DNA from: a virus
Taxonomy: Duplodnaviria; Caudoviricetes
IMG/VR virus record: IMGVR_UViG_3300033515_000012
Coordinates: 1 to 38,700 of that record
DNA: 38,700 nt
Reading direction: 5' to 3' (one strand)
Below, in pieces: positions 2,343-22,632 of the stretch (positions are counted from its first letter, which is position 1; each line of letters opens with the position of its first letter). The notes beneath the pieces were generated by a model. The model did no database searches. It saw nothing but the letters and a program-made list of their open reading frames with translations, and was not told where the DNA came from. Made by a program: the position numbers and the translations under genes.

Positions 2343-3556
2343 TACTTTTTACTATCATATTCAAGATTCATTACTTTAGCTGAAAATTTACTATCAAGAG
2401 TTCTAACTACAATACCTTCAATCATATTCTGTTTGAAATAAGCATTACACTCTGCAAGTAAATCTTCTTTAGAAATAAATTCTCTATTAAACACTTCAGT
2501 TACTCTATTAAATTGTAGTCTATAAGGTAGTGTCGAAAGTAAATTTGTAATTCCAAGAAAATCAATATAAGGTAATTTTTCTGCAACTCCATTAATTACA
2601 TTATCAACTCCAAAGAATTTAATATTAGCTTTTTCTTTAGATGCTGGATTATTTTTATTACCAGAACCTTTAAGACTTCCACCATTCAATTCTCCTCTTA
2701 ATATACAATTATCAAGGTTATAATAAATCATTTCATCCAAATATGGTTTAGCATATTTTACAAAATCATCATCATTCTCAATTTCCGCATAAACTTTTAA
2801 ATCAGGAATAATACCAAATAAAGATTTAATCCATTCCCAAATAGTTGGTTTTCTGTAATCTACTACTTTCTTAATAGTCAAAGGTTTATTAACATTTCTT
2901 GAACAAATAAATGGTTCACCTTTTTTAATACCAAAAGTAATAGAACTACCATCTACTTTTTCAGTACCTACTAAAGTAACAGGATAACCTATTTTATTCT
3001 CTAAATGCTTCCAAAGATTATTAATATTTTCTTCATCAGTTTTATAAACTCCTTCAGGAAATACTTTACCAGCACCAGTTTTAATACCATATTTATTAGT
3101 ATGTTCTGGTTCTTCGTATTTAGTAATACCTAATAATTCAGTTAATTTTTCTACTGGATATTGATTTAAACTATTTTTAAAAGTTTCTTCTAACCAAATA
3201 TTAACTTCAAATAAAGGTAATAATATTCCATTAGAATAAACAGGGTCTCCATTAGGTACTTTAGATAGATTAAATTTCTTTGCTCTAATTCTTCTTGGTT
3301 GTCCTTCTACTTTTCCTAACATTGATTTACTTTCATCACCATTAGGTCTAATAAATGAATCAAACAAACTTATATCAGATAGGTTATAATCAGGTTGAAT
3401 TAATACAGCTTTATCACCTATCTGGTATAAAGTTTTATTTGCTACTAGTTCATAACCTACTTCTTCTAATTCTATTATTTCAATAGTATTAGCTTGTTCT
3501 TCTCCTTTATATAAAGGAATTTTTGATTTTATTGTTACAATTTCTACTGGATTCAT
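2342..3556 (-). CDS. ATP-dependent RNA ligase, DRB0094/Rnl2-like family
   Basis: Nucleotidyltransferase motifs EKVDGSS (I), RGE (III), FFGVD (IIIa), EGIVVR (IV), AKV (V); N-terminal OB-like domain. Confidence 0.85.
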   Translation of the reverse strand: MNPVEIVTIKSKIPLYKGEEQANTIEIIELEEVGYELVANKTLYQIGDKAVLIQPDYNLSDISLFDSFIRPNGDESKSMLGKVEGQPRRIRAKKFNLSKVPNGDPVYSNGILLPLFEVNIWLEETFKNSLNQYPVEKLTELLGITKYEEPEHTNKYGIKTGAGKVFPEGVYKTDEENINNLWKHLENKIGYPVTLVGTEKVDGSSITFGIKKGEPFICSRNVNKPLTIKKVVDYRKPTIWEWIKSLFGIIPDLKVYAEIENDDDFVKYAKPYLDEMIYYNLDNCILRGELNGGSLKGSGNKNNPASKEKANIKFFGVDNVINGVAEKLPYIDFLGITNLLSTLPYRLQFNRVTEVFNREFISKEDLLAECNAYFKQNMIEGIVVRTLDSKFSAKVMNLEYDSKK

Positions 3557-3798: not shown

Positions 3799-5682
3799 TT
3801 AAGTAAATAATTTTAATTGATTATTATTGTTAAGTTCATCTATTATTTTTTGAACTGATGAGATGTAATATTGGTAATTGATTTTGTAATCACACCATTC
3901 TTTTTTTTCGTAGTTATTAAAGAGTTTAACACCTTCTCCAACATTGACATGTTGCATTGTACCAACGCCATGTTTTTGTTTGAATAAATATGGTTCATTT
4001 TTGCTAAAATAATACCTATTAAGTTGTTGTTGGATTTTTCCATCATGATAAACTATAAAGTCTTTAGATATTTTATTAGATTTACAATAGTCATATATAT
4101 GTAAATCATATTTATCTGGGTTAGTAATAAATTCTTTTGGTTCAATACCATTTACATAATAAGCATTTAAAGCTTTAGCAATTACTTGTTCATTACAAGA
4201 ATCACCTAAAGGTACTTCACGTTTATTATATTCATTAAACGGTAATTTAAACATACCTTTACGTTTAATAGAACCTGATTCTGTTACAGCTAAATAATTA
4301 TTAACATTAGAATATATAATTTTAGAATAATTTTCATATTCTAAATTAAGATTAAACTTTTGAGCTTCGTTTTGAGTCAATTCATAAAATAAATTTAATT
4401 CAGATTTTGGTACAAGAGCTTCAATTCCATCTGTATTGTATGAGATTGTTTTCCAGTTATTTAAAATACATATTTCACCAATTTTAGTTAATATTAATTG
4501 ACCAATTAATCTTAATTTCATTGCTCCTTCAGGATAATATAACCATGAATGTTCATTGTCAAGTAAACCTGATGTTGAATTTAAAATAAGTTTAAGAAAA
4601 CTATCTTTAGATTTATTTTTTTCTTTTTTAGCAATTACTCTTTCTTCTCGAACTTGATTATATTTATTTAATACTTCAGGTTGTCTAATACAATTATAAT
4701 TTAACATTAAATTTGGGTATAATGAAGTAAAATCTGCAGTAACAACTTGAATTTCATCATTAGAGGAATATTGTTCATTATTATTAACACTATGTAATCC
4801 CCCAATACCATAAGATAATTTAATAGAAGTATTATTGTGATTTACAATTAATTCTTTACTAAAACTATTTTTAGAATTACAAACATCTAACCATAATTGT
4901 TGGAATATAGGTAATTTAAATTGTGGTTCAAAACCTTTTAATAATTCACCTAAATACAATATAGGTTTTTCAAATCTTTGTTTTCTGACTTCTTTTTTGT
5001 CTTTAACTGTAGATTTACAATAATCATCTAATAATGCTTCAGATGCAATTTTAGGTGCATCCCATGACCAACAATCTAATCCATATTCATTTACAATAGA
5101 ACCTCTTAAATTAATATCAGGTTCCATTTCAATTAATAACATTTCAGTAATACCTAAATCATGTACTTTATTATAATGTCTTAATTTTGGTAAATCTTCA
5201 ACAGTTAATATAGTATCTGGTTTATAAGGTAATTCTTGAATTGTGTCATAACCTAATTGAACAGCTAATGATTTTAATGACATTTTTTTAGATATTCTAA
5301 GCATCTTAGACCAATAAGCAAATAAATCTATAGAAATATATTTTTTTTTATACCATTTTGCTTGTTTAATATCTTTATCGTTAAAATCATCATTAATTAA
5401 TTTATCAGAAAATTGTTTTAATCTTTTACAAAATTCATTTAAAGGTAAATGTTTAAAAGTATTATAATTTAGAACTAAATGATTTAACACAACTTCATCA
5501 TAATGTAAGGAGTTAAATCCTATCATGAAACCTTTAAAAGTTGTTATATATTGATAAATTTGTATTAAATCATTATGTTCTTCAGAAAGTTCATAGAATT
5601 GTATTTCTTTAGTATTAAAATCTTTAATACCTATACAAAAGTAATTCCAATAACATTCTATATCTATTATGTGTTTATCCAT
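3799..5682 (-). CDS. DNA polymerase family B with 3'-5' exonuclease domain
   Basis: ExoI DIE, ExoII GFNSLHYD, ExoIII YNKVHD; motif A DFTSLYPN, motif B KLILNSTSG, motif C YNTDG. Confidence 0.92.
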   Translation of the reverse strand: MDKHIIDIECYWNYFCIGIKDFNTKEIQFYELSEEHNDLIQIYQYITTFKGFMIGFNSLHYDEVVLNHLVLNYNTFKHLPLNEFCKRLKQFSDKLINDDFNDKDIKQAKWYKKKYISIDLFAYWSKMLRISKKMSLKSLAVQLGYDTIQELPYKPDTILTVEDLPKLRHYNKVHDLGITEMLLIEMEPDINLRGSIVNEYGLDCWSWDAPKIASEALLDDYCKSTVKDKKEVRKQRFEKPILYLGELLKGFEPQFKLPIFQQLWLDVCNSKNSFSKELIVNHNNTSIKLSYGIGGLHSVNNNEQYSSNDEIQVVTADFTSLYPNLMLNYNCIRQPEVLNKYNQVREERVIAKKEKNKSKDSFLKLILNSTSGLLDNEHSWLYYPEGAMKLRLIGQLILTKIGEICILNNWKTISYNTDGIEALVPKSELNLFYELTQNEAQKFNLNLEYENYSKIIYSNVNNYLAVTESGSIKRKGMFKLPFNEYNKREVPLGDSCNEQVIAKALNAYYVNGIEPKEFITNPDKYDLHIYDYCKSNKISKDFIVYHDGKIQQQLNRYYFSKNEPYLFKQKHGVGTMQHVNVGEGVKLFNNYEKKEWCDYKINYQYYISSVQKIIDELNNNNQLKLFT

Positions 5683-11741: not shown

Positions 11742-11990
11742 CTACCATTCTATATTTGGATCTACACAAGATTTACCATTAATAAATAATTCTATACTAA
11801 TAGAAGTGTTTTTTATTAATATACTATCTATTGATTGTGGTACATCAGAAGATTCTTCTAAATCATCTTCTGTAATTGTTTTTGTTGCTTTATCAATTAA
11901 GTCATCTTTAGCAATTAATAATCCATAATAACATGTTTCTAAAATATCAAGTTTTTGTTTTGATAATTTTGTTAAATCTAAATTTTTCAT
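11742..11990 (-). CDS. Hypothetical acidic protein
   Basis: 82 aa ORF with TAACTAAC leader. Confidence 0.7.
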   Translation of the reverse strand: MKNLDLTKLSKQKLDILETCYYGLLIAKDDLIDKATKTITEDDLEESSDVPQSIDSILIKNTSISIELFINGKSCVDPNIEW

Positions 11991-12320
11991 AATATTTAAT
12001 TGTTAGTTAATAATTTTTTAATAGTTAATAATAAAAAAAATGTTGAAGCTTCACATACTAGAGATAAATCCTACTTCAACTGGTAACATTGAGCTGTTAC
12101 AGGGAAACTCACGATGCTTATCTTCATCTAGTTTCACGTTATTATCCTAGTGATAAGTTCAAATAACCGTTATTTTAAAAAACAACACTATAGTTTGTCA
12201 ATCTACATTTCCCCAATTATAAGTTTTATACTTATGTGCTGACGACCAAGTAAGACACTGCTTATAATTGTTATCCACGTGGATAGGGTGCTAGACATTT
12301 GCACTAAATGTTGTTTTAAG

Positions 12321-12392
12321 TATTCCTAGAGAGAATCGAACTTTCGTTATCTGGTCGAAAACCAGAGGTCCTAACCACTAGACGATAGGAAC
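12321..12392 (-). tRNA. tRNA-Glu(TTC)
   Basis: GTTCCTA/TAGGAAT acceptor, GTCTAGTGGTTAGGAC D arm, TCTGG-TTTTCGA-CCAGA anticodon arm, GAAAG-TTCGATT-CTCTC T arm; CCA not encoded. Confidence 0.9.
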
Positions 12393-12454: not shown

Positions 12455-12835
12455 TGGTGGAGCATCTGGGAGTCGAACCCAGGTCTTTCTTAAAATTCAA
12501 TATAATAAAATATTACAGTTTAGCTATAGATTAATGTGTTTAACTACACGAGGTCAACTGATAAATCAGCGATTCCACCACTTCATTTAATCTAATGAAG
12601 AAATCTTAAAATAATCTAAAAATTCTATTAAGCTGCTAATTCTAATTCACCTATTACAGTGTCAGATTTAACTGAAAGTTCATCAATACCGTTTAAAATA
12701 TTATGAACTACTTGCATGTTTGCTCTTGTTTGAGCGATCGTATTCTTGTCATTTCTTGTATTCACCTTAGTTTACGGTTATCTCTCCGACTGTTTATTAT
12801 ATTTACTACTTAAAAAATCAAATCCAGTATGCCCC
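12455..12835 (-). ncRNA. ssrA: tmRNA (381 nt)
   Basis: 5' GGGGCATACTGGATTTGA; 3' GACCTGGGTTCGACTCCCAGATGCTCCACCA; G3-U wobble in acceptor stem; helix-2 pairings AATATAATAA/TTATTATATT and ACAGT/ACTGT; tag frame ending ELELAA-TAA-TAG. Confidence 0.93.
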
Positions 12836-12984
12836 ATAGTTTTGTTGTTTAAGGTACAACAAAATAAACCTATTTTAGCACCCTCTTTCTTATATCAGTT
12901 CTATATACACTTAAAAGCCTATGTGATGTACTATAAGAGTAGGGTCATGTAGTTCATAAGAGGCTTTACAAACGCACATTAAAC

Positions 12985-13408
12985 TATTTTGTTACGTTAT
13001 TAAACTACTTGCTGAAAACTCATTTGTGTTGTAGTACGGCGACTTTTTAAAATTCATCACTTGATACTCTCTATGTTTTCACCTATTCCTTTCTCAAGGG
13101 AACAACACATCTACCATCTCTGATAGTATCTTTATGTAAATTACGGATATATATCCTTTAAACTGTGTCTATCACAAGAATAATTTACAAAGGTATTCAA
13201 TGTTTAACCTGTTTTAATATGCAGACTATAATACATATTTTATTATAAAACAACATATCCTTCAAGATAGGGATATATATACTTTCATGCACAAGTAAAT
13301 TAGCTTGCAACAATCCATCACCTACATATCGGTGCATTGGGGTACTATATCATACTCAACAAACATAACACCTCTTGATAGTGTTTAGAATCGTCACGTT
13401 ACAAAATA
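12985..13408 (-). ncRNA. Large multi-helix structured RNA, family unknown
   Basis: 12/13-bp closing stem plus many nested helices; no long ORF. Confidence 0.65.
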
Positions 13409-13483
13409 AATTTTATAAGAGGACGTGAATAATCAATTTATATTCTATTTATTGTTTTTCTATATGTTGTTTATATTTTTGTT

Positions 13484-13828
13484 TTAAGCTATTGTTTTAC
13501 TAACTGTTTTACGTTCACGTTTTTTCAAACTTCTAACTTTTGTAGGTTCTTTTTGAATAACATCTTTAATATGTTCAGATAATTGTCTAACACCTTTTGT
13601 TTCATGTGTAGGACATTTTTCTTTTTCTACAAAATCAACATTTAAAAGTTTATTTTCTAATTCGATATTGTTTTTATTATCAACATCTTTTGTTATTTTT
13701 TTTGTAATAACATCTTCAATACCATCTTGTGTTGTAAATTCGGAAGAATGTGGAGCATTAATTGCTGGATATATTTGCCATATAATTACACCTAGTAATA
13801 ATAATACAAAAATAATACTTGTCATCAT
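13484..13828 (-). CDS. Membrane-anchored hypothetical protein
   Basis: N-terminal hydrophobic helix, basic C-terminus. Confidence 0.75.
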   Translation of the reverse strand: MMTSIIFVLLLLGVIIWQIYPAINAPHSSEFTTQDGIEDVITKKITKDVDNKNNIELENKLLNVDFVEKEKCPTHETKGVRQLSEHIKDVIQKEPTKVRSLKKRERKTVSKTIA

Positions 13829-14286: not shown

Positions 14287-15018
14287 TTATAAATTTTGTT
14301 CAATCCATTTATTCATTGTAGGTGTAGATAATATCTTATCACTACTTGTTTTTAAAATACTCGGTACATCTTCATTAAAATTATTTAATAATTCAATAAC
14401 TTCTTCTCTATCCCAACTATCTTTAATTGATTTAATTGTAATAGTATTGTCAGAATTTACTTTTAAGTTAGTAAAAAAATCTGTTTCACATTTAGGTTCA
14501 TTTGGCATTTTATTATCTTGACACCCCCATATATATTCTGTTTTCCCACAAATAATACATTTAGATATACAAGTATATTCAACTAATACATCACTAATAA
14601 CATTTCCTTTGTTATATTTTTCAATGTATTCTTCAATAAATTGTTTTGATGGTTGAGGTAATGAATTAGCTCCACCAACACCATTTCTATAATAAGCATC
14701 AATTTCAGATTCTATTTTTAATGAAGAATCTGTAGAAGCCAAAACTTTATATCCTTCATTATTAATATTAGGATAATCAATTAAATCTTGTTTAGTTACT
14801 TGATGTATCCATTTTTTATTAATAGGTTTTACATGAAATTTAATATAATTGCTTTCTTTTATTTCATCATCTGAAATAATGTATAAATTTTGAGGTTTAC
14901 AATAGGAAGTATATTCTAAATTATTACCAAAACATAATCCATTATCACCTATAAATCCAATATTACTTGTATTTTTTGTTGGTAATATTATTACCTTTGC
15001 TTTTTTAAATTGTTTCAT
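14287..15018 (-). CDS. Hypothetical phage protein, paralog of 1..400
   Basis: ILPT...QNLYIISDDEIKE...KVLASTD...QFIEEY parallels the partial ORF at the window start. Confidence 0.8.
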   Translation of the reverse strand: MKQFKKAKVIILPTKNTSNIGFIGDNGLCFGNNLEYTSYCKPQNLYIISDDEIKESNYIKFHVKPINKKWIHQVTKQDLIDYPNINNEGYKVLASTDSSLKIESEIDAYYRNGVGGANSLPQPSKQFIEEYIEKYNKGNVISDVLVEYTCISKCIICGKTEYIWGCQDNKMPNEPKCETDFFTNLKVNSDNTITIKSIKDSWDREEVIELLNNFNEDVPSILKTSSDKILSTPTMNKWIEQNL

Positions 15019-21150: not shown

Positions 21151-22632
21151 ATGAAAGAAATATATTTTAAAGAAGAAGCAAGAAATAAATTATTTAAAGG
21201 TATTCAAAAACTACATGATGCAGTAGCATCTACACTTGGACCAAATGGTAAAACTGTTATTATTACAGATGAATATGGTAAGCCTTATGTTACTAAAGAT
21301 GGTGTATCTGTAGCTAGAAAAATTTATTTTAAAGATGCTGTAGAAAATGTAGGTGCTGAATTAATTAAAGAAGTATGTGAGTTACAAGTTAAACAAGCTG
21401 GTGATGGAACCACAACTGCAATTGTATTGGCTAATGCTTTTATACAAAATTTAAAAGATTTTGATTCAAAAGATATTAATAAAGCTTTTGATGAAATTAT
21501 ACCTAAAGTAATTGAACAACTTAAACTTAATTCAAAAGAATTAAAACGTGAAGACATTAAATATGTTGCTAGTATATCTGCTAATAATGATATACAAATT
21601 GGTGAACTTATTCAACAAGCTTATAACTTTTCTAATATAATTAAAGTTGAAGAATCTAATAATTTAGAAGATTCACTTGAAAATATTGAAGGGATGAAAT
21701 TAGATGTATCTTATATGTCTAAAAGATTTACTAATACACCTAAAGAACATTGTGAGTTAGATAATCCTTATGTGTTACTTTTAGATGGTAAACTTGAAGA
21801 TTTAATGTCTTTAAAAGTAATACTTGAAAAAGTTTCGTCCACAGACGAATCTATTTTAATTATTACAGAATATATATCTGAAAAAGAATTACGTAAATTA
21901 GAATCATTAGTATTATCAGGTAATATTAAATTATGTGTTATTAAAACACCTGGATTTGGTCCTGTAAGAAAAGATTTTATTAGAGATTTATCTGACTTCA
22001 CTGGAGCTGAAATAATTAATATACAACCAGGAAAACAATATTCATTATCATGTTTAGGTAAATTAAAATCATGTACTATTACTAAAAATAATAGTTTACT
22101 TATTAAACATGAGGATGTTAATGTGGATGAAATTGTAGAAGGATTAACAGAATTATCTAAGAATAAAGAACTTACTAATTATGATGTTGAAGTAATTAAT
22201 AAACGTATTGAAAATCTAACAGCTAAAGCATCTATAATTAAAGTAGGTGGTGGTTCTGAAATAGAAATGAAGGAACGTAAAGATAGATATGATGATGCTG
22301 TATTAGCTGTAGCATGTGCATTAGAAGAAGGTATTGTTGAAGGTGGTGGAGTAGCATTATTTAAAATAGGAATTGAACAAGAAACAGAAAAAAATAAGTT
22401 AAAAGAAAAATTAATAGATAGTTTATTAATTCCGTATTTAGTAATATATTCTGAAAGAGTAGAATATTTTAAAAATGAAACAATCTACAAATATCCTTTA
22501 GAAGATAAATTTAAAGAAAATATTATAGACCCACTTAAAGTCACTAGATGTGCTTTAGAAAATGCTGTATCAATAGCTAAAACAATATTGTCAACAGACA
22601 CAATTGTACTTAATGAAAGAACATGGAGTTAA
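21151..22632 (+). CDS. groEL: GroEL-like chaperonin (493 aa)
   Basis: TLGPNG, TKDGVSVA, AGDGTTTA, ISANND, KTPGFG, KVGGGSEIEMKERKDRYDDA, EEGIVEGGG, IIDPLKV. Confidence 0.95.
   Translation: MKEIYFKEEARNKLFKGIQKLHDAVASTLGPNGKTVIITDEYGKPYVTKDGVSVARKIYFKDAVENVGAELIKEVCELQVKQAGDGTTTAIVLANAFIQNLKDFDSKDINKAFDEIIPKVIEQLKLNSKELKREDIKYVASISANNDIQIGELIQQAYNFSNIIKVEESNNLEDSLENIEGMKLDVSYMSKRFTNTPKEHCELDNPYVLLLDGKLEDLMSLKVILEKVSSTDESILIITEYISEKELRKLESLVLSGNIKLCVIKTPGFGPVRKDFIRDLSDFTGAEIINIQPGKQYSLSCLGKLKSCTITKNNSLLIKHEDVNVDEIVEGLTELSKNKELTNYDVEVINKRIENLTAKASIIKVGGGSEIEMKERKDRYDDAVLAVACALEEGIVEGGGVALFKIGIEQETEKNKLKEKLIDSLLIPYLVIYSERVEYFKNETIYKYPLEDKFKENIIDPLKVTRCALENAVSIAKTILSTDTIVLNERTWS

What the first reader, a model, noticed from the sequence alone, without database searches (positions are those of the whole stretch)
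12985..13408. ~425-nt ornate RNA of unknown family
The ends pair (12985-12997 with 13396-13408, 12/13 bp). Nested helices include TTATGTTT/AAACATAG (13361-68 with 13071-78), TGTAAATTA/TAATTTACA (13135-13189), CTATCA-GAGA-TGGTAG (GNRA loop), TTCCC-TTGAGAA-AGGAA and ATATCC/GGATAT, plus a crossing GTGTTGT/ACAACAC pairing (13102-08 with 13026-32). G-U pairs indicate the minus strand. Size and tRNA-adjacent phage context recall ROOL/GOLLD-class RNAs, but I cannot assign it. RNase P and group I intron core signatures were not found.
Basis: partly seen in the sequence, partly recalled or inferred. Interest (0 to 1): 0.8.

Follow-up and report, generated by a model that had tools for sequence, protein, structure and literature searches.

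The report
Two uncatalogued knotted phage RNAs
The flagged stretch is not one 425-base RNA but the abutting halves of two conserved, folded non-coding RNA genes that the RNA family catalogue lacks; the larger one is spread across unrelated phages beside tRNA and tmRNA genes and likely works as a stable decoy for a host RNA-binding protein during infection.

Summary
Most local helices are real and the minus strand is right; the boundaries are wrong. In this crAss-like phage the region straddles RNA-A (13472-13248, 225 nt) and RNA-B (13211-12875, 337 nt), then tmRNA and tRNA-Glu.

RNA-B: 183 distinct copies held; 6 pairs beat a tree-based null; 33 of 50 model pairs change on both sides. RNA-A lies upstream in only 14 of 145 copies. 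No Rfam family matches.

The only cultured carrier found is Cellulophaga phage phi14:2, where the copy starts just after g004. That junction is reported as highly and persistently transcribed (mapping inferred). There is no constant protein neighbour, and HNH endonuclease cassettes invade the RNA yet restore its core.

Function is untested. Best guess: a trans-acting decoy (0.4). Rivals: RNA-only multimer, ribozyme.

The parts
13248..13472 (-). RNA-A, 225 nt, uncatalogued. Closing helix P1 13472-13462 with 13258-13248; P2 about 13456-13451 with 13363-13358; hairpin P3 13384-13368; hairpin P5 13271-13259; two variable arms
   Evidence: 28 distinct copies by anchor. P1 paired in 22-26 of 26 copies per position with several pair types. 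The four best-scoring column pairs all lie in P1 or P5, E 0.07-0.60, none below 0.05. P2 24-26 of 26, P3 26 of 26 at best register
13263..13377 (-). Predicted kissing loops of RNA-A: CAAGA 13377-13373 with UCUUG 13267-13263
   Evidence: 26 of 26 complementary but invariant and fixed by my anchors; one extra flanking pair is U-A in 13 copies, C-G in 2, unpaired in 11
13212..13247 (-). 36-nt A/U-rich linker between the two RNAs
   Evidence: Spacing differs among tandem loci, 20-177 nt from the RNA-A 3' anchor to the RNA-B start
12875..13211 (-). RNA-B, 337 nt, uncatalogued. P1 13210-13208/13193-13191 with loop UAAACAUUGA; P2 13189-13183/13141-13135; P3 (GNRA) 13126-13121/13116-13111; P4 13109-13103/13031-13025; P5 13102-13099/13089-13086; P6 13008-13003/12954-12949; P7a 12945-12941/12884-12880; P7b 12937-12933/12893-12889; 3' GGUGCUAA; four variable arms
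   Evidence: median length 311 nt, range 246-514, in 134 copies capped at 520 by my filter
13012..13097 (-). Predicted pseudoknot of RNA-B: P5 loop UUGAGAA 13097-13091 with UUUUCAG 13018-13012
   Evidence: Complementary in 152-159 of 164 rows per position, mostly invariant (some rows mis-anchored). Two-sided changes in L262, L515, L529, L543. Not significant against the tree null
12455..12835 (-). tmRNA, starting 40 nt after RNA-B
   Evidence: ARAGORN; Rfam RF00023 39.8 bits, below the gathering score of 47, E 5e-14; spacing
12320..12392 (-). tRNA-Glu(UUC)
12049..12167 (-). Third conserved non-coding element of the island, not analysed further
   Evidence: 76% identical over 119 nt to L111/L429 (one contig), which also carries RNA-A and the RNA-B start
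13484..13828 (-). 114-aa ORF of unknown function whose stop lies 12 nt before RNA-A; likely the upstream part of the same transcript
   Evidence: no PHROG or Pfam match

Best explanation
The region holds two separate conserved RNA genes, RNA-A and RNA-B, in a phage tRNA/tmRNA island; they are likely cut out of an early multi-gene transcript, are predicted to fold into compact loop-locked shapes, and likely act in trans as long-lived decoys that bind a host RNA-binding protein of the translation or RNA-cleaving defence machinery. Shown by comparison: two independent units, their boundaries, strand, helices P1-P5 of RNA-B and P1 of RNA-A, spread across unrelated phages, no constant protein neighbour (about 0.9). 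Inferred: release by host RNases at the neighbouring tmRNA/tRNA ends; high, lasting abundance, taken from the phi14:2 homolog; the pseudoknot and kissing loops. Guessed: the decoy role and its target (about 0.4).
For: Units: in 92 copies anchored on the 3' motif, the P1-loop anchor lies upstream in 76, the P4 3' anchor in 62 and the RNA-A anchors in 8-9. Structure: 134 copies, effective 107; 6 of 15,931 column pairs exceed all 40 tree-based nulls, 5 in P3 and 1 in P5; four P4 pairs at E 0.2-0.6. In 50 compact copies 94.5% of cells pair against 83.6% in shuffles and 36-51% in slid controls. RNAalifold alone finds P3, P4 and P7a, 13 of 18 pairs with two-sided change. Trans-acting and host-directed: the commonest neighbouring protein family is in 13 of 240 loci. 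Carriers include crAss-like and other phages: a crAss capsid match in 15 of 27 records, 12 of 19 near-complete ones. Of 75 copies with full flanks, 18 have an ARAGORN tRNA or tmRNA, all on the same strand, and a T-loop-like motif lies on the same strand in 38 against 3 on the other. Abundance: phi14:2 carries RNA-B at 2912-3359, just after RefSeq g004 (ends 2904), and a tmRNA at 4031-4500. The preprint 10.1101/2020.03.07.982082 reports the g004-g005 and g005-g006 junctions as more abundant than most genes, present from 40 min and not declining. Selection to keep it whole: in L103, L207, L246, L263 and L282 an HNH-type ORF sits inside the RNA and is followed by a recoded P3-P5 segment and the intact 3' core (Pfam HNH_3 for the three scanned).
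Against: No call shows binding, a target or a phenotype. 57 of 75 copies have no ARAGORN tRNA or tmRNA within 1 kb. No run holds half the words of this stretch, so expression of this copy is not shown. The invariance of the unpaired motifs, pseudoknot, P6 and P7a is partly forced by my search anchors, and none of these pairs beats the null. The pseudoknot is broken on one side in some copies (L217, L343, L377, L522). RNA-B alone folds no better than shuffles (z -0.65). RNA-A has only 26 aligned copies and no pair below E 0.05. The mapping to the preprint's junction rests on RefSeq gene names; g005 is not listed there and the preprint's tables were not seen.
Confidence: 0.4

Rival explanations
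1. RNA-B (and RNA-A) assemble into RNA-only multimers, as ROOL and GOLLD do, with the complementary loops pairing between molecules.
For: Same setting as ROOL and GOLLD: phage tRNA islands, abundant, no protein partner, kissing loops (PMC12286853 passages). A conserved GNRA hairpin and near-invariant complementary loops.
Against: About half the size of ROOL (659 nt) and GOLLD (over 800 nt), with fewer conserved helices. The only long palindrome (13156-13145) lies in a variable arm. Sequence comparison cannot tell pairing within a molecule from pairing between molecules.
Confidence: 0.2
2. RNA-B is a ribozyme of a new class that processes or repairs the island's tRNA/tmRNA transcripts, or cleaves itself.
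For: Near-invariant junction nucleotides with optional peripheral arms (P2 and P6 can be lost). Endonuclease ORFs sit inside it, as in group I introns. Its P4-P5-loop core also occurs alone directly 5' of tRNA and tRNA-like genes: tRNA within 1 kb in 31 of 42 such copies, within 40 nt downstream in 16.
Against: No Rfam match to RNase P, group I/II or small ribozymes at E up to 10 in the window or in 20 homolog loci. Flanks are A-rich linkers, not exons. Most copies have no ARAGORN tRNA nearby.
Confidence: 0.17
3. The folds are cis-acting leaders or stability elements of the phage transcript, or DNA-level signals such as promoters, not free RNAs with a job of their own.
For: Each RNA starts just after a stop codon or another RNA. 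TAnnTTTG, a recalled Bacteroidota promoter motif, occurs at 13367 and 13195. A shortened core sits right after a gene in G002 and G021.
Against: Downstream genes vary and no family exceeds 13 of 240 loci. The TAnnTTTG at 13195 changes with P1 covariation. The phi14:2 junction RNA persists after early mRNAs decline.
Confidence: 0.13
4. One 424-nt ornate RNA closed by the 12985-12997/13396-13408 stem.
For: The stem is in the minimum-energy fold of that exact stretch. A and B are adjacent in 14 of 145 copies, far more often than chance would place them.
Against: Chance-level stem, not kept in 5 other tandem loci, and absent from the fold of the full 602-nt A+B region. It cuts through covarying RNA-A P1 and conserved RNA-B P6/P7.
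Confidence: 0.04

Closest known systems
Unnamed abundant 'long non-coding RNA' of the g004-g005 junction of Cellulophaga phage phi14:2 (bioRxiv 10.1101/2020.03.07.982082)
   Same: RNA-B's homolog (82.7% identity over half the query in 4 pieces, E 2e-4; all motifs in order) begins 7 nt after RefSeq g004, on the strand reported as transcribed, upstream of a tmRNA.
   Different: The passages read give no boundaries, structure, family or function. No RNA-A match was found in phi14:2. The junction mapping is inferred.
ROOL and GOLLD RNAs (PMC12286853)
   Same: Phage-encoded, near tRNA islands, pseudoknots or kissing loops, no known partner or function.
   Different: No match to their Rfam models; 225 and about 310 nt against 659 and over 800 nt; multimer formation untested.
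Theta (HDV-like) ribozymes of gut phages (PMC10879173; search listing and abstract start only)
   Same: Small pseudoknotted RNAs beside phage tRNAs; the free-standing P4-P5 core is also tRNA-adjacent.
   Different: The core here lies 5' of the tRNA and has a different helix order (HDV fold recalled). RNA-B is far larger. No Rfam HDV-like match.
Group I introns with homing endonucleases (recalled)
   Same: Conserved core with variable peripheral arms; HNH/NUMOD4 ORFs inside some copies.
   Different: No interrupted gene and no Rfam match. The HNH cassette duplicates and recodes part of the RNA, which looks like a free-standing homing gene protecting its target.

Membership tests
ROOL | Match to the Rfam ROOL covariance model | tested here: not met
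   No match at gathering score or at E up to 10
ROOL | Phage-encoded, often near tRNA islands | tested here: met
   feature as stated in PMC12286853
ROOL | Self-assembly into an RNA-only nanocage | not testable with these tools
   Needs cryo-EM or mass photometry
GOLLD | Match to the Rfam model, conserved 3' domain, often over 800 nt | tested here: not met
   No match; median 311 nt
Bacterial RNase P RNA | Rfam RNase P models; P4 motifs GGAAAGUC and CGGCUUA (motifs recalled) | tested here: not met
   No match; motifs absent from the alignment consensus
Bacterial RNase P RNA | Cleaves pre-tRNA 5' leaders | not testable with these tools
   Needs an in vitro assay
Group I intron | Catalytic-core model match | tested here: not met
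Group I intron | Interrupts a gene, with exons on both sides | tested here: not met
   Immediate flanks of the copies shown are A-rich linkers, stop codons or ends of other RNAs; in the window RNA-A precedes and tmRNA follows
Group II intron | Domain 5/6 model match | tested here: not met
HEARO / omega RNA (HNH-associated RNA) | Constant pairing with an HNH/IscB ORF (recalled) | tested here: not met
   The NUMOD4-HNH cluster is in 7 of 240 loci; none beside the window's copy; no Rfam match
Small self-cleaving ribozymes (HDV-like/theta, twister, pistol, hatchet, hammerhead) | Rfam model match | tested here: not met
Small self-cleaving ribozymes (HDV-like/theta, twister, pistol, hatchet, hammerhead) | Self-cleavage in vitro | not testable with these tools
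   Needs a co-transcriptional cleavage assay
phi14:2 g004-g005 junction RNA | Sequence homolog in that junction on the transcribed strand | tested here: met
   junction limits inferred from RefSeq names g004 and g006

The most novel reading that the evidence does not exclude
RNA-B, RNA-A and the free-standing tRNA-leader form are a family of phage RNAs built on one loop-locked core, and RNA-B is a new class of large catalytic or self-assembling RNA that phages of Bacteroidota-type hosts trade as a counter-defence or tRNA-processing device, valuable enough that invading homing endonucleases rebuild it.
Probability: 0.25. Interest if true: 0.9.

Novelty: new variant of a known kind. Interest (0 to 1): 0.64.

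Why it matters
Few large bacterial or phage RNA classes are known, and those of unknown function (ROOL, GOLLD) have proved structurally surprising. RNA-B gives boundaries and a covariation-backed fold to a transcript that a published phage study flagged as abundant and unexplained. It does so in a cultured phage-host pair (phi14:2 and Cellulophaga baltica), so the question becomes directly testable. RNA-A is a second uncatalogued family, and the shared core in front of phage tRNA-like genes hints at a wider RNA toolkit in phage tRNA islands.

Tried and rejected
- Neighbour protein 14287-15018 found no related loci (14 pattern matches, none confirmed).
- Sliding 120-nt folding z-scores over 12985-13408 were unremarkable, none below -2.
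- Sigma-70 promoter scan: 12 sites against 13.5 expected; no minus-strand terminator.
- TAnnTTTG promoter reading rejected.
- A 9-nt complement of RNA-B's 3' end downstream of tRNA-Glu occurs in 1 of 111 copies, the window only; rejected.
- Pairing of the P1 loop (CAUU) with AAUG: complementary in 129 of 134 but without two-sided change. Eight copies with AACG/AACA have a different P1 region with no clear restored pairing. Unresolved.
- AGCA/UGCU pairing between 13013-13010 and 12877-12880 is invariant and competes with the pseudoknot; unsupported.
- My first helix coordinates for RNA-A, and for A-P2/A-P3, were out of register; corrected.
- The P1-loop pattern scan also returned chance matches: 35 of 69 with room had both downstream anchors, and most of the rest had no profile hit.
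- Sequencing runs: 20 of 22 rows hold a small share (at most 0.14), none half. In 4 RNA runs, contigs of relatives cover conserved blocks of RNA-A, RNA-B and tmRNA. DNA carry-over is not excluded and no coding-region control was obtained, so this is not counted as evidence of expression.
- Cultured-phage searches found only phi14:2 for RNA-B and nothing better than E 0.8 among the 20 of 70 rows listed for RNA-A.
- Flavo-1 guess (recalled) dropped: no Rfam match.
- Literature: 9 searches gave no description of either RNA among the listed rows, beyond the phi14:2 remark. Motifs were absent from 4 searchable supplement files of PMC10690425; its two zip files and three large files could not be searched and may hold these RNAs as unnamed candidates, as may the database of bioRxiv 10.64898/2026.10.21.760802.

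Full report
Setting. The window is a 38.7-kb virus record, 38% complete. Its major head protein, portal and terminase match PHROG 11589, 6547 and 6681; reading these as crAss-like is from recall, backed by the phi14:2 homolog. Between an ORF ending at 13484 and one starting at 11990 lies a minus-strand stretch with no credible gene (only one 68-codon plus-strand ORF is listed). It holds tmRNA (12835-12455) and tRNA-Glu (12392-12320). Rfam has nothing at 12985-13408 at gathering score or at E up to 10.

Observation. All quoted strings exist. The 424-nt stretch folds modestly better than shuffles, z -1.99 minus and -1.84 plus, so folding alone proves little and I went to homologs.

Homologs. Related phages were fetched through the GroEL-like gene (47 loci). 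Whole-record searches (44 searched) showed short conserved blocks in fixed order separated by variable arms. Motif scans gave: P4-P5 motif, 123 stretches, about 370 estimated in IMG/VR; 3' motif, 99; pseudoknot strand, 119, about 290 estimated in metagenomes; RNA-A motif, 29. Among 185,579 prokaryote genomes the P4-P5 motif matched 12 times. A profile hit 7 of those 12, six of them metagenome bins of discordant taxa, which I infer to be mis-binned phage contigs.

Two genes, not one. In 92 copies anchored at 12953, the P1-loop anchor is upstream in 76, the P4 3' anchor in 62, the terminal motif downstream in 75, and RNA-A anchors in only 8-9. With a looser anchor RNA-A precedes 14 of 145 copies. 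Of 27 RNA-A copies, 11 have the RNA-B start within the sequence held, and G010 has one RNA-A copy in front of a protein gene.

Structure of RNA-B. I aligned 134 copies of at most 520 nt and tested 15,931 column pairs against 40 tree-based nulls. Six pairs exceeded every null: 5 in the GNRA hairpin P3 and 1 in P5. Four P4 pairs had E 0.2-0.6. A first run on 60 copies gave 4 pairs at E up to 0.02. On 50 compact copies (the window plus 49 of the 50 picked; L117 left out), a 50-pair model pairs 94.5% of cells against 83.6% in shuffles and 36-51% when slid, with two-sided change in 33 pairs. The model was drawn from these sequences, so the count leans its way. RNAalifold alone recovers P3, P4 and P7a. 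The likely pseudoknot is the P5 loop with 13018-13012: complementary in 152-159 of 164 rows per position, with two-sided changes in L262, L515, L529 and L543, one-sided breaks in several others, and no significance against the null. P6 and P7a are nearly invariant, partly because of my anchors. P2 and P6 can be lost.

Structure of RNA-A. In 26 copies the closing helix pairs in 22-26 of 26 per position with A-U, C-G and U-A swaps. The four best column pairs all fall in P1 or P5, though none passes E 0.05. P2 and P3 hold. The CAAGA/UCUUG kissing loops are complementary in all 26 but fixed by the anchors.

Context. No neighbouring protein family exceeds 13 of 240 loci; the named ones are SPFH, an exonuclease, NUMOD4-HNH, VRR-NUC and DUF3799. 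Of 28 large carrier contigs picked by hand, 27 were searchable: 15 match the crAss-type capsid family, and 7 of 19 near-complete ones do not, including genomes of 124-373 kb. The RNA therefore occurs in unrelated phages. Of 75 copies with full flanks, 13 have a tRNA and 7 a tmRNA, all on the same strand, and T-loop-like motifs are on the same strand in 38 against 3. In 5 of 10 long-spaced loci examined an HNH-type ORF lies inside the RNA, followed by a recoded P3-P5 segment and the intact 3' core; a sixth, L254, has a GIY-YIG-like ORF (recalled motif, not scanned). The P4-P5 core also stands alone with a 3' hairpin whose loop complements the P5 loop: 73 copies, tRNA within 1 kb in 31 of 42 with full flanks; 78 of 87 copies from a loop-free pattern have the upstream hairpin.

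Expression. The only cultured carrier found among 50,697 phage records is phi14:2. Its copy starts 7 nt after RefSeq g004 and is followed by a tmRNA at 4031-4500. The preprint 10.1101/2020.03.07.982082 (passages and section 4 read) reports the g004-g005 and g005-g006 junctions as rightward, more abundant than most genes, early and persistent, function undetermined. Assigning them to RNA-B and tmRNA is my inference; its supplementary tables could not be seen. For the window's own copy there is no expression evidence.

Mechanism. Shown: two independent, covarying RNA genes in an RNA island. Inferred: co-transcription with early genes, release by host RNases and long life. Guessed: with no phage partner, spread among unrelated phages, strongly kept unpaired motifs and tRNA/tmRNA company, the likeliest role is binding a host component, as a decoy for translation-surveillance or RNA-cleaving defence proteins (0.4). 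That phage tRNAs counter such defences is recalled and appears in the abstract start of PMC13096335 (listing only). Rivals: RNA-only multimer (0.2), ribozyme (0.17), cis element (0.13), single 424-nt RNA (0.04).

Comparison. It works like ROOL and GOLLD in setting (PMC12286853, passages) but is a member of neither, nor of RNase P, group I/II introns, HEARO or small ribozymes. Other papers seen: PMC10690425 (passages and 4 supplement files), bioRxiv 10.64898/2026.09.22.753630 and 10.64898/2026.10.21.760802 (abstract, outline and passages), PMC8375218 (passages), PMC10879173 and PMC2864571 (listings only). None of what I saw describes these RNAs; unnamed candidates in files I could not search remain possible. 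Earlier notes of this scan report RNA-B on other genomes and gave the phi14:2 lead, which I checked; they are not independent support.

Verdict. Interest 0.64.

Noticed in passing
   Followed up: partly
L086, L095, L105, L106, L124, L126, L153, L169 and others: The free-standing P4-P5 kissing core is followed within a few bases by tRNAs or by tRNA-like RNAs with a common acceptor stem and a large, variable insert in place of the anticodon arm.
   Followed up: partly
L103 1560-2200; L207 755-1520; L246, L263, L282: HNH cassettes inserted in RNA-B carry a recoded second copy of P3-P5 that restores the 3' core, as expected of a homing gene protecting its own target.
   Followed up: partly
L080 3150-3290; L081 3410-3495: Shortened core without P1-P3 or the 3' domain, close behind the stop codon of one conserved gene family; in G010 RNA-A sits at the same place.
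   Followed up: no
L108, L199, L221, L225, L241, L264, L291, L464: A subfamily of RNA-B lacks the UAAACAUUGA loop (most have a different P1 loop) and has AACG or AACA in place of AAUG, a correlated change that may mark a tertiary contact.
   Followed up: partly
window 12455-12835 (-): The tmRNA scores below Rfam's gathering threshold (39.8 against 47) and has a long predicted tag, ANMQVVHNILNGIDELSVKSDTVIGELELAA.
   Followed up: no
KC821624.1 3106-4519 (L206): The GenBank record of phi14:2 annotates small hypothetical ORFs across RNA-B and the tmRNA; RefSeq removed them but annotates neither RNA.
   Followed up: yes
L472, L520, L499: Partial or duplicated RNA-B copies: a 5' domain alone, or a copy lacking P4-P5 but keeping the 3' domain.
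   Followed up: no
window 21151-22632 (+): GroEL-like chaperonin gene directly before the terminase, with 47 related viral loci.
   Followed up: no
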